NCBI RefSeq assembly: GCF_003334405.1
Contig: NZ_QOWM01000005.1
Length of the DNA: 64,000 bases
Direction: 5' to 3' (one strand)
From: Escherichia coli
GTDB taxonomy: Bacteria; Pseudomonadota; Gammaproteobacteria; Enterobacterales; Enterobacteriaceae
Of this stretch, positions 58,489 to 59,178 are shown in pieces (the first letter of the stretch is position 1; the number at the start of each line of letters is the position of its first letter). Below the pieces are notes generated by a model that was not told the DNA's origin, searched no databases, and saw only the letters and a program-made list of their open reading frames with translations. The position numbers were made by a program, and so were the translations under genes.

Positions 58489-59178
58489 ATGAAAAAAATT
58501 ATCGCATTGATGTTGTTTTTGACATTCTTTGCCCACGCCAACGACTCCGAGCCTGGCAGCCAGTATTTAAAGGCAGCAGAGGCCGGGGACCGACGCGCAC
58601 AATATTTTCTTGCCGACAGCTGGTTTAGCTCCGGCGATTTGAGCAAAGCCGAATATTGGGCACAGAAAGCCGCCGACAGCGGTGATGCTGATGCCTGCGC
58701 GCTGCTGGCGCAGATCAAAATCACCAATCCGGTCAGTCTGGACTATCCACAAGCAAAAGTTCTTGCAGAGAAAGCGGCGCAAGCGGGCAGTAAAGAAGGT
58801 GAAGTAACGCTGGCGCATATTCTGGTAAATACTCAAGCGGGTAAACCGGATTATCCAAAGGCAATTTCGCTGTTAGAAAACGCCTCGGAAGATCTGGAGA
58901 ACGACTCTGCCGTCGATGCCCAAATGCTGCTTGGTTTGATTTACGCCAACGGCGTGGGCATTAAGGCCGACGATGACAAGGCAACCTGGTATTTCAAACG
59001 CAGCTCTGCAATTTCCCGAACCGGTTATTCCGAGTACTGGGCGGGAATGATGTTCTTAAACGGTGAAGAAGGTTTTATCGAGAAGAACAAGCAAAAGGCG
59101 CTGCACTGGTTGAACCTGAGCTGTATGGAAGGGTTTGATACCGGGTGTGAAGAGTTTGAAAAATTAACCAACGGTTAA
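58489..59178 (+). CDS. yjcO: YjcO, secreted Sel1/TPR-like repeat protein (229 aa)
   Basis: Signal peptide MKKIIALMLFLTFFAHA followed by Sel1-like repeats. Confidence 0.88.
   Translation: MKKIIALMLFLTFFAHANDSEPGSQYLKAAEAGDRRAQYFLADSWFSSGDLSKAEYWAQKAADSGDADACALLAQIKITNPVSLDYPQAKVLAEKAAQAGSKEGEVTLAHILVNTQAGKPDYPKAISLLENASEDLENDSAVDAQMLLGLIYANGVGIKADDDKATWYFKRSSAISRTGYSEYWAGMMFLNGEEGFIEKNKQKALHWLNLSCMEGFDTGCEEFEKLTNG

What the first reader, a model, noticed from the sequence alone, without database searches (positions are those of the whole stretch)
58489..59178. yjcO: secreted Sel1-repeat protein of unknown function next to fdhF
Signal peptide plus tandem Sel1/TPR-like repeats; such proteins often mediate periplasmic protein-protein interactions. 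It is followed by the large BIME array.
Basis: inference. Interest (0 to 1): 0.25.

Follow-up and report, generated by a model that had tools for sequence, protein, structure and literature searches.

The report
yjcO: exported Sel1-repeat protein gene
This is the already annotated E. coli core gene yjcO, which encodes a small exported helical-repeat (Sel1-like) protein that probably binds another cell-envelope protein; its partner and role are still unknown, so the finding is correct but ordinary.

Summary
[quoted passage not shown] It lies between fdhF and a 4.3-unit BIME array, with gltP convergent.

What the tools show:
- **Structure:** a Klebsiella relative has a solved structure, 3RJV. 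The AlphaFold model (pLDDT 90.9) superposes on it at TM 0.96. It has an N-cap helix, five helix hairpins and a C-cap helix.
- **Export:** the N-terminus looks like a classical Sec signal peptide (MKK, hydrophobic core, AHA|N) with no lipobox.
- **Cysteines:** Cys212 and Cys220 are invariant in 76 of 76 distinct orthologue sequences, which suggests a periplasmic disulfide.
- **Constraint:** the gene is in 5419 of 5426 complete E. coli genomes. The pattern scan found it only in Enterobacteriaceae. dN/dS is about 0.02-0.07.
- **Transcription:** it appears to be its own unit. The link to fdhF is inherited gene order, not an operon.

Best reading: a soluble periplasmic Sel1-repeat adaptor or inhibitor that binds an envelope protein, by analogy with Ilt/PA3978 inhibiting MltF. 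No partner is identified here or in the papers read, which still call the function unknown.

Verdict: already known, low interest.

The parts
58409..58437 (+). Intrinsic terminator of fdhF (9-bp GC-rich stem, 4-nt loop, T-run), separating fdhF from yjcO
   Evidence: Terminator scan. The stem and T-run are conserved in Escherichia, Citrobacter, Salmonella and Kluyvera.
58451..58460 (+). Invariant block CTTTATACTG containing a -10-like hexamer TATACT (58454-58459); candidate yjcO promoter. It lies 29 nt upstream of the ATG, and no Shine-Dalgarno sequence follows.
   Evidence: Invariant in all 10 aligned upstream regions from four genera. PMC3946193 lists an RpoD-holoenzyme constitutive promoter in the fdhF-yjcO spacer without a consensus. 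The simple consensus scan did not call it because the -35 is poor. Promoter function is inferred.
58489..59178 (+). yjcO coding sequence, 229 codons plus TAA
   Evidence: dN/dS 0.02-0.07. Present in 5419 of 5426 complete E. coli genomes.
58489..58539 (+). Signal peptide (residues 1-17, MKKIIALMLFLTFFAHA, predicted cleavage AHA|ND); signal peptidase I type, no lipobox cysteine
   Evidence: Sequence features. A-x-A is retained in orthologues while the segment is otherwise the most variable. 3RJV aligns from residue 20. pLDDT is below 60 here. Cleavage was not shown experimentally here.
58540..58590 (+). N-terminal segment of the mature protein with capping helix (residues 18-34; helix 24-31)
   Evidence: AlphaFold2 secondary structure.
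58591..58686 (+). Repeat 1 (residues 35-66), short-loop TPR-like Sel1 hairpin
   Evidence: Helices 35-48 and 51-63. Pfam Sel1 at 37-66, E 0.01, and TPR_16 at 27-68.
58687..58791 (+). Repeat 2 (residues 67-101)
   Evidence: Helices 67-79 and 86-98. Not detected by Pfam at E<=10 as Sel1. Assigned from the structure.
58792..58902 (+). Repeat 3 (residues 102-138)
   Evidence: Helices 102-112 and 122-133. Assigned from the structure.
58903..59025 (+). Repeat 4 (residues 139-179), canonical Sel1 repeat, highly conserved (AVDAQ..G..YA.G.....DD..A....K.SS..SRTGY)
   Evidence: Pfam Sel1 at 143-173, E 5.5e-5. Helices 139-154 and 162-176. 20 of 41 residues are >=97% conserved across 76 distinct orthologue sequences.
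59026..59136 (+). Repeat 5 (residues 180-216), canonical Sel1 repeat and the most conserved segment; contains Cys212 (codon 59122-59124)
   Evidence: Pfam Sel1 at 181-215, E 7.6e-6. Helices 180-191 and 201-213. 22 of 37 residues are >=97% conserved.
59137..59175 (+). C-terminal capping helix (residues 217-229) with Cys220 (codon 59146-59148); motif SC.EGFDTGCE; putative Cys212-Cys220 disulfide
   Evidence: Helix 217-227. Cys212 and Cys220 are invariant in 76 of 76 sequences, whereas Cys70 is not. The disulfide itself is inferred.
59181..59668 (.). BIME array in the yjcO-gltP convergent spacer: 4.3 units of 113 bp, each with two REP hairpins. The first hairpin starts at 59184, 6 nt after the yjcO stop codon.
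   Evidence: Tandem Repeats Finder. Four Rfam naRNA4 (RF02564) matches above the gathering score on the - strand plus a partial fifth. RNA fold -53 kcal/mol, z -5.2. PMC3333891 studied a partial BIME, B319, from the gltP-yjcO region.

Best explanation
yjcO is a stand-alone, vertically inherited core gene of Enterobacteriaceae.

**Expression (inferred).** It is transcribed from its own weak promoter just after the fdhF terminator. Its mRNA ends in the BIME/REP hairpins.

**Protein.** The product is exported by the Sec pathway and cleaved after AHA17 (inferred from sequence). This gives a soluble, acidic periplasmic protein of about 23 kDa (calculated pI 4.6). It folds into a right-handed alpha-solenoid: an N-cap helix, five Sel1-like helix hairpins and a C-cap helix (shown by model and by the solved relative). 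The C-cap is probably stapled to repeat 5 by a Cys212-Cys220 disulfide made in the periplasm (inferred).

**Mechanism (inferred from the family).** It has no catalytic motif. It most likely works as a protein-binding module that captures a segment or domain of another envelope protein. The main contact surface would be the strongly conserved repeats 4-5. Binding would inhibit, scaffold or sequester the partner, as other small periplasmic Sel1-repeat proteins do (Ilt/PA3978 inhibits the lytic transglycosylase MltF). The partner is unknown. It is unlikely to be FdhF.
For: - **Identity and annotation:**
- **Sel1 repeats:** Pfam. Sequence matches to Sel1-repeat crystal structures, with 3RJV at E 2.4e-95 over residues 20-229.
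- **Fold:** AlphaFold2 pLDDT 90.9 and pTM 0.85, with 12 helices in the mature part. Foldseek top hit is 3RJV at TM 0.96, rmsd 1.5 A, 70% identity. The next hits are all Sel1-repeat proteins: Oxalobacter proteins, LceB, c5321, LpnE, SEL1L, HcpC and AlgK.
- **Export signal:**
- **Cysteines:** Cys212 and Cys220 invariant in 76 of 76; Cys70 variable.
- **Real, constrained gene:** dN/dS 0.016-0.071. Single copy in 5419 of 5426 complete E. coli genomes.
- **Own transcription unit:** fdhF terminator; invariant TATACT block; RpoD promoter listed in this spacer; a hok-like gene lies between fdhF and yjcO in an Enterobacter locus; the gene is relocated in Buttiauxella.
- **Precedent for the mechanism:** PA3978/Ilt, a small periplasmic Sel1-like repeat protein, binds the MltF catalytic domain and inhibits it.
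Against: - No binding partner, phenotype or localisation datum for YjcO was found. The papers read say 'unknown function'.
- Neither the orthologues nor the more distant full-length relatives P0178 and P0260 have a conserved neighbour that would suggest a partner.
- The model superposes poorly on other Sel1-repeat proteins (rmsd 6-8 A, TM about 0.5-0.6), so their binding modes cannot simply be transferred.
- The signal peptide and the disulfide are inferred, not measured.
- The promoter has a poor -35 and was not called by the consensus scan.
Confidence: 0.7

Rival explanations
1. Specific version of the main reading: YjcO is an Ilt/EnhC-like inhibitor or regulator of a peptidoglycan hydrolase (a lytic transglycosylase or another cell-wall enzyme), and so influences cell-wall remodelling or division.
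For: - Ilt/PA3978 and its Acinetobacter homologue Gcf are small periplasmic Sel1-like repeat proteins tied to peptidoglycan metabolism.
- One multicopy suppressor plasmid of an ftsEX null mutant, pSS18, carried 'mdtP-fdhF-yjcO.
- YjcO has the right compartment, size and fold.
Against: - pSS18 was a single isolate with a chimeric insert that also carried ygjI-ebgC-'ebgA. The responsible gene was not mapped.
- No peptidoglycan gene is a conserved neighbour. Only one distant relative, P0260, lies next to a SIS-domain gene that I read, untested, as murQ-like.
Confidence: 0.15
2. YjcO is functionally coupled to FdhF or the formate hydrogenlyase pathway, for example co-expressed with fdhF or acting in formate or selenium handling.
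For: - The order fdhF -> yjcO -> <- gltP is kept in about 60 of 80 Enterobacteriaceae loci.
- In Franconibacter the 47%-identical relative lies about 2 kb from fhlA, next to ORFs that I read, untested, as hyp genes.
Against: - A strong terminator follows fdhF, and the spacer has its own conserved -10 element and a listed RpoD promoter.
- A hok-like toxin gene sits in an enlarged spacer in Enterobacter.
- In Buttiauxella yjcO sits between a tcyP-like transporter gene and katE, with no fdhF or gltP.
- YjcO carries an export signal, whereas FdhF is a cytoplasmic enzyme (established knowledge).
- The clade is narrow, so shared gene order is expected from vertical descent alone.
- The Franconibacter case is a single lineage.
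Confidence: 0.05
3. YjcO is an orphan immunity protein that neutralises a periplasm-acting toxin delivered by competitors. Sel1-repeat immunity proteins against type VI phospholipase effectors are the model (from memory, not tested).
For: It is periplasmic, small and all-helical, with no enzyme motif. It diverges faster between genera (60-70% identity) than the flanking FdhF and GltP (about 94%).
Against: - It is a single-copy core gene at a fixed chromosomal site in essentially all E. coli.
- Selection is strongly purifying rather than diversifying.
- No effector, Rhs, VgrG or CDI genes are next to it in any locus inspected.
- There is no PADLOC match, although that library covers anti-phage systems only.
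Confidence: 0.05
4. YjcO has a catalytic or beta-lactam-binding role like that claimed for Helicobacter cysteine-rich (Hcp) Sel1-repeat proteins.
For: HcpC (1OUV) is among the fold matches. The C-terminal motif SC.EGFDTGC resembles the Hcp inter-helix cysteine pair. In Franconibacter the relative lies directly downstream of a HARLDQ-motif B3 metallo-beta-lactamase-like gene.
Against: - YjcO has only one conserved cysteine pair, whereas Hcp proteins have one per repeat.
- No catalytic family matched in Pfam or NCBIfam.
- The metallo-beta-lactamase neighbour occurs in one species only, since P0123 and the L078 protein are 99% identical.
Confidence: 0.03
5. The ORF is a decaying or functionless relic.
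For: - Rare natural alleles carry in-frame deletions of 18-35 residues, a 20-residue duplication or truncations.
- The gene was lost or fused without evident cost in the long-term evolution experiment, line Ara+1.
- There is no Shine-Dalgarno sequence.
Against: dN/dS is 0.02-0.07. The gene is intact in nearly all complete genomes. About half the residues in repeats 4-5 are >=97% conserved across 76 distinct orthologue sequences. A relative's structure is well folded.
Confidence: 0.02

Closest known systems
KPN_04481 of Klebsiella pneumoniae (PDB 3RJV, 'putative Sel1 repeat protein', 1.65 A, released 2011)
   Same: It is about 70% identical over the whole mature protein (E 2.4e-95). The model superposes at TM 0.96 and rmsd 1.5 A. 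The C-terminal SC.EGFDTGCE motif is the same.
   Different: It comes from a different genus. The deposit carries no functional annotation, so the structure adds fold but not function.
Ilt (PA3978) of Pseudomonas aeruginosa and Gcf of Acinetobacter baylyi: periplasmic Sel1-like repeat inhibitors of lytic transglycosylase MltF
   Same: All are small, soluble, exported, all-helical Sel1-like repeat proteins without catalytic motifs. Ilt acts purely by binding another periplasmic protein. This is the best working analogue for how YjcO may act.
   Different: Ilt has three predicted repeats plus a distinct C-terminal region, whereas YjcO has five hairpins and a disulfide-type cap. No sequence comparison could be made here. 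Ilt has an anti-inhibitor lipoprotein, Lii, and no such partner is indicated for YjcO.
c5321 of uropathogenic E. coli CFT073 (PDB 4BWR)
   Same: It is an E. coli Sel1-repeat protein matched by sequence (E 2.1e-15) and by fold.
   Different: The chain is 467 residues and only about 24% identical, with rmsd 8.4 A. It is described as a protective antigen present in uropathogenic strains (variable among non-pathogenic strains per the abstract). yjcO is core, in 5419 of 5426 genomes.
Helicobacter cysteine-rich proteins (HcpB 1KLX, HcpC 1OUV)
   Same: Same Sel1-repeat fold. The cysteine pair bridging the end of one repeat to the next helix resembles YjcO Cys212/Cys220.
   Different: Hcp proteins carry a cysteine pair in each repeat (established knowledge). 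YjcO conserves a single pair, in the last repeat and cap only. The sequence match is weak (E 4.7e-6 and 0.3).
AlgK (alginate secretion TPR/Sel1-like lipoprotein) and MotX (Vibrio flagellar Sel1-repeat protein)
   Same: Both are periplasmic Sel1/TPR-like scaffolds, and they are among the NCBIfam matches (AlgK is the best).
   Different: The scores are far below the curated cut-offs (27.2 against 700 bits; 14.1 against 330 bits). YjcO has no lipobox and no alg or flagellar gene neighbours.
BIME array / Rfam naRNA4 (RF02564), for the downstream repeat only
   Same: Four 113-bp units exceed the family's gathering score (71-79 bits against 59.5). The array consists of tandem REP pairs.
   Different: This is a different locus from the one I recall the family being described from (REP325; from memory). 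Whether this array gives a stable RNA was not tested.

Membership tests
[quoted passage not shown] | Near-identity to WP_000719886.1 at the fdhF-gltP locus | tested here: met
   100% nucleotide identity to MG1655 over 1501 bp, with the same flanking genes.
Sel1-like repeat (SLR) proteins, Pfam PF08238 / TPR clan | Tandem motifs of about 36-44 residues matched by the Sel1 profile | tested here: met
   Three Sel1 matches: E 7.6e-6, 5.5e-5 and 0.01. The precomputed Pfam PF08238 label is on nearly all listed homologues.
Sel1-like repeat (SLR) proteins, Pfam PF08238 / TPR clan | Antiparallel helix-hairpin repeats stacked into an alpha/alpha solenoid | tested here: met
   The AlphaFold2 model has pLDDT 90.9 and shows five hairpins plus two caps. 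Its best fold matches are solved Sel1-repeat proteins, with 3RJV at TM 0.96.
Sec-exported soluble periplasmic proteins (signal peptidase I substrates) | N-terminal signal peptide with a basic n-region, a hydrophobic core and small residues at -3/-1; no lipobox cysteine | tested here: inconclusive
   The sequence fits (MKK / IIALMLFLTFF / AHA|N), the cleavage motif is conserved and no Cys lies near the site. However, no signal-peptide predictor or experiment was available.
Helicobacter cysteine-rich protein (Hcp) subfamily | A disulfide-forming cysteine pair in every repeat | tested here: not met
   Only Cys212 and Cys220 are conserved. Cys70 is variable, and repeats 1-4 lack a pair.
AlgK (NF038194) | Score above the curated cut-off; lipoprotein signal | tested here: not met
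   27.2 bits against a cut-off of 700. No lipobox.
MotX (NF047621) and MerG (NF033786) | Score above the curated cut-off | tested here: not met
   14.1 against 330 bits, and 16.4 against 350 bits.
Ilt/Gcf lytic-transglycosylase inhibitors | Sequence homology to PA3978, and binding to and inhibition of MltF | not tested
Only the general architecture is shared.
fdhF operon member | Co-transcription with fdhF | tested here: not met
   There is a terminator between the genes, a conserved -10-like element and a listed RpoD promoter in the spacer, a hok-like insertion in one Enterobacter locus and relocation in Buttiauxella. No transcript data were examined.
BIME / Rfam naRNA4 (downstream array) | Covariance-model score above the gathering threshold; tandem REP hairpin pairs | tested here: met
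   Four matches of 71.4-79 bits against a gathering score of 59.5. Period 113, 4.3 copies. Hairpins fold at -53 kcal/mol, z -5.2.

The most novel reading that the evidence does not exclude
YjcO is an Enterobacteriaceae-specific periplasmic regulator (inhibitor or adaptor) of a peptidoglycan-remodelling enzyme, analogous to Ilt acting on MltF. On this reading, raising its dosage is what allowed plasmid pSS18 to suppress the ftsEX null division defect. That would add a new control point for cell-wall hydrolases in E. coli.
Probability: 0.12. Interest if true: 0.45.

Novelty: already known. Interest (0 to 1): 0.13.

Why it matters
As it stands, little. The gene, its repeat family and even a crystal structure of a close relative are already public, and this analysis only confirms and tidies the annotation.

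Its residual value is that YjcO is one of the uncharacterised 'y-genes' of E. coli. It is core, strongly constrained and exported, so it presumably has a real envelope role. Three results narrow the search for that role:
- It is not an fdhF operon member.
- Its most conserved surface is in repeats 4-5 and the cysteine-stapled cap.
- The best precedent is a protein inhibitor of a cell-wall hydrolase.

If the partner proved to be a peptidoglycan hydrolase, that would interest the cell-envelope field moderately.

Tried and rejected
- **Partner from gene neighbourhood.** 80 loci from one genome per species show conserved fdhF/gltP flanks. This is explained by vertical descent in a narrow clade. 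The exceptions (Buttiauxella: tcyP-like and katE; Franconibacter: MBL-like and fhlA) share nothing with each other.
- **MBL neighbour in Franconibacter.** It looked like a possible second independent association, but the metagenomic copy P0123/L089 is 99% identical to the Franconibacter helveticus protein. This is therefore one lineage, not independent evidence.
- **Exhaustive profile search of 1.84 billion representatives.** Beyond the orthologue cluster the top hits are giant multi-repeat Sel1 proteins whose scores simply add up. Only two further full-length relatives of about 245 aa, P0178 and P0260, stood out, and their neighbourhoods differ: KdsA-like (DAHP_synth_1) plus radical SAM for one, and a SIS-domain gene that I read as murQ-like plus GNAT for the other.
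- **NCBIfam and PADLOC.** Only sub-threshold matches to AlgK, MerG and MotX, and no defence-system match.
- **Literature.** Most of the E. coli papers read that mention yjcO refer to mutation calls in the repetitive gltP/yjcO spacer, to strain differences, or to yjcO as an arbitrary test gene. None assigns a function. The 15-paper reading cap stopped me reading the c5321 paper that cites 3RJV.
- **Sigma-E or other stress-type promoter upstream.** A search by eye found no element with correct spacing. The inverted-repeat finder returned nothing for the REPs because their arms lack a 9-nt exact seed, so folding was used instead.
- **Mapping conservation onto the 3D surface.** This was not possible because model coordinates are not exposed to the scripting tool.
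Full report
**1. Observation**

The window holds an ATG-initiated ORF of 229 codons at exactly 58489..59178 on the + strand, ending in TAA. No competing long ORF exists on either strand; the overlapping reverse-strand ORFs are 88-89 aa. 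A megablast of 58300-59800 against 5,426 complete E. coli genomes gives 100% identity to K-12 MG1655 and many other strains. [quoted passage not shown]

- fdhF lies upstream on the same strand at 56248..58395. It is split in the ORF list by its in-frame TGA at 56665-56667.
- A tandem array follows at 59181-59668.
- gltP is convergent at 59709..61022, followed by nrfG/F/E.

**2. What the protein is**

Profile and sequence evidence:
- Pfam finds Sel1 repeats (PF08238) at residues 181-215 (E 7.6e-6), 143-173 (E 5.5e-5) and 37-66 (E 0.01), plus weak TPR matches.
- A search of all PDB sequences gives 3RJV, a 212-residue 'putative Sel1 repeat protein', at E 2.4e-95 covering query residues 20-229. 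It is followed by other Sel1-repeat structures: Oxalobacter proteins, LceB, c5321, LpnE, SEL1L, HcpC and AlgK.

Structural evidence:
- An AlphaFold2 model built on 14 orthologues has mean pLDDT 90.9 and pTM 0.85.
- After the signal peptide it shows helices at 24-31, 35-48/51-63, 67-79/86-98, 102-112/122-133, 139-154/162-176, 180-191/201-213 and 217-227. That is an N-cap, five helix hairpins and a C-cap.
- Foldseek places it on 3RJV (KPN_04481, Klebsiella pneumoniae) at TM 0.96, rmsd 1.5 A and 70% identity.
- All other good hits are Sel1-repeat proteins but superpose poorly (rmsd 6-8 A), so the superhelix geometry is family-specific.
- Pfam therefore under-counts the repeats. Repeats 1-3 are degenerate and repeats 4-5 are canonical.

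**3. Export and disulfide**

The N-terminus, MKK-IIALMLFLTFF-AHA|NDSEPG, has the three regions of a signal peptidase I substrate and no lipobox cysteine. Among orthologues this segment is the least conserved but keeps a small-x-small motif before the conserved (E)PGSQY. The 3RJV chain aligns only from query residue 20. The mature protein is calculated at 212 aa, 23.1 kDa and pI 4.6.

Cys212 and Cys220, in the motif SC.EGFDTGCE, are invariant in all 76 distinct orthologue sequences. Cys70 is replaced by M, L, Y, W or F. A conserved pair bridging the last repeat and the cap helix resembles the inter-helix disulfides of the Helicobacter Hcp proteins (established knowledge) and fits an oxidising periplasmic location. 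The disulfide itself is inferred.

**4. Distribution and selection**

- The CDS alone is found in 5,419 of 5,426 complete E. coli genomes, essentially always as a single chromosomal copy.
- A scan of one genome per species (100,044 species), using two conserved peptide patterns, returned 82 relatives, of which 80 were kept. All 80 are from Enterobacteriaceae genera: Escherichia, Citrobacter, Salmonella, Kluyvera, Klebsiella, Raoultella, Buttiauxella, Pluralibacter, Enterobacter, Lelliottia, Leclercia, Trabulsiella, Shimwellia, Yokenella, Silvania, Franconibacter and others. Because the scan was pattern-based, remote relatives are missed by design.
- An exhaustive profile search found only two further full-length families of about 245 aa, P0178 and P0260. 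Otherwise it hit giant multi-repeat Sel1 proteins.
- Pairwise dN/dS against E. albertii, E. whittamii, Citrobacter and Salmonella is 0.016-0.071, similar to GltP and FdhF.
- Between genera YjcO nevertheless diverges much more (60-70% identity) than its neighbours (about 94%).
- Conservation is concentrated in repeats 4-5, where 20 of 41 and 22 of 37 residues are >=97% conserved. In repeats 1-3 the figures are 8-11 of 32-37.

**5. Relation to fdhF**

The order fdhF -> yjcO -> <- gltP is kept in about 60 of 80 loci. Several results argue against an operon or a functional link.
- A 9-bp GC-rich hairpin with a T-run follows fdhF at 58409-58437.
- The spacer contains an invariant CTTTATACTG block, with the -10-like TATACT 29 nt before the ATG, in four genera.
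- PMC3946193 lists an RpoD-holoenzyme 'constitutive promoter' in the fdhF-yjcO spacer.
- In many Enterobacter and Lelliottia loci the spacer is about 600 bp. In L052 it holds a 50-aa ORF that I judge Hok-like from its sequence, untested.
- In Buttiauxella the gene sits between a tcyP-like transporter gene and katE.
- In Franconibacter it sits after a HARLDQ-motif B3 metallo-beta-lactamase-like gene, about 2 kb from fhlA. That is a single lineage.
- FdhF is cytoplasmic (established knowledge), whereas YjcO carries an export signal.

The neighbourhood is best read as inherited gene order.

**6. Mechanism**

There is no catalytic family match and no defence-system match. The fold is a protein-binding solenoid. 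The closest working precedent found in the literature is Ilt (PA3978) of P. aeruginosa. [quoted passage not shown]

I therefore commit to this reading: YjcO is a soluble periplasmic binder that inhibits, scaffolds or sequesters an envelope protein, using mainly the conserved C-terminal repeats.
- **Shown:** gene identity, repeat family, fold, conservation, purifying selection.
- **Inferred:** export, disulfide, own promoter, binding function.
- **Unknown:** the partner.

One weak lead points to the cell wall. A single, chimeric multicopy plasmid (pSS18) carrying 'mdtP-fdhF-yjcO suppressed an ftsEX null mutant, but the responsible gene was not mapped.

**7. Literature status**

The papers that could be read call yjcO 'unknown function' or 'function not assigned':
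- the 2026 deletion-fusion preprint, in which a yjcO-lysU fusion arose in long-term evolution line Ara+1;
- the polysome study;
- the C43(DE3) genome paper, which reports a Glu->Gly change in yjcO with no mapped effect.

Most other mentions read concern mutation calls in the repetitive gltP/yjcO spacer or amplicon boundaries there.

**8. The downstream array**

- Tandem Repeats Finder gives 4.3 units of 113 bp at 96% identity.
- Each unit folds into two REP hairpins.
- Four units match Rfam naRNA4 (RF02564) above the gathering score on the - strand, with a partial fifth.
- PMC3333891 used a partial BIME, B319, from the gltP-yjcO region as a substrate for a REP-associated Y1 transposase.
- The first hairpin begins 6 nt after the yjcO stop codon.

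**9. Verdict**

This is an already annotated core gene whose close relative has had a solved structure since 2011. Nothing about it is anomalous. It is ordinary and of low interest. The only open point is which envelope protein it binds.

Noticed in passing
window 59181-59668 (and L002, L003, L004, L042, L070): The BIME array units match Rfam naRNA4 (RF02564) above the gathering score four times, plus a partial fifth. The yjcO-gltP spacer length varies widely within Escherichia, from about 84 to 615 bp against 531 bp here. Only 2643 of 5426 genomes hold >=80% of the 1.5-kb query in one place. The spacer is a recurrent site of +GC/+CG 'mutations' in MG1655 stocks and of amplicon boundaries.
   Followed up: partly
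window 59176-59230: The first REP hairpin starts at 59184, only 6 nt after the yjcO stop codon. From memory, REPs within about 15 nt of a stop codon have been reported to lower translation of the upstream gene through ribosome stalling and trans-translation. Together with the missing Shine-Dalgarno sequence, this would predict low YjcO levels. Not tested.
   Followed up: no
window 56248-58395: fdhF carries its in-frame TGA at 56665-56667, presumably the selenocysteine codon. The mechanical ORF list therefore splits the gene into 56248..56667 and 56716..58395, while RefSeq annotates one 715-codon CDS.
   Followed up: partly
L052 5727-5879 (+), Enterobacter quasihormaechei: A 50-aa ORF, MTPLKTALGIVFIICLTIVIFTFITRDKLCEFSIKSEHQEVAAKLACTAG, lies between fdhF and yjcO. 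I judge it Hok/Gef-like from its sequence, untested. Many Enterobacter, Lelliottia and Leclercia loci have an fdhF-yjcO spacer of about 600 bp, against 93 bp in E. coli.
   Followed up: no
L078 4937-6672 and L089 1331-3051 (Franconibacter helveticus): The 47%-identical YjcO-like gene lies directly downstream of a HARLDQ-motif subclass-B3-like metallo-beta-lactamase-fold gene. In L078 it is about 2 kb from fhlA, next to ORFs that I read, untested, as hyp genes. The two contigs are 99% identical, so this is one lineage.
   Followed up: partly
yjcO alleles P0001, P0007, P0012, P0017, P0019-P0022: Rare natural alleles have clean in-frame deletions of 18-35 residues, a 20-residue tandem duplication (AAQAGSKEGEVTLAHILVNT) or truncations. 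P0007 is named as from Shigella sonnei. Some fusion proteins also occur, for example P0025, an ABC ATPase N-terminus joined to the YjcO C-terminus. This suggests slippage or recombination between the internal repeats.
   Followed up: partly
yjcO against gltP and fdhF across loci L006, L007, L012, L019: Synonymous divergence of yjcO from Citrobacter and Salmonella (dS 1.1-1.7) is higher than that of the flanking gltP and fdhF (0.6-1.1). This may reflect weaker codon-usage constraint on a poorly expressed gene.
   Followed up: no
literature: plasmid pSS18 (MG1655 'mdtP-fdhF-yjcO joined to ygjI-ebgC-'ebgA): A single chimeric multicopy clone containing yjcO suppressed the low-salt lethality of an ftsEX null mutant. 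The gene responsible was not determined.
   Followed up: no
L086-L088 (relative P0260) and L082-L085 (relative P0178): The nearest non-enterobacterial full-length relatives (245-249 aa, with a signal peptide and a C-terminal cysteine pair at wider spacing) have different neighbours. P0260 lies divergent from a SIS-domain gene that I read, untested, as murQ-like. P0178 lies after a KdsA-like (DAHP_synth_1) gene and a radical-SAM gene. There is no shared context.
   Followed up: partly
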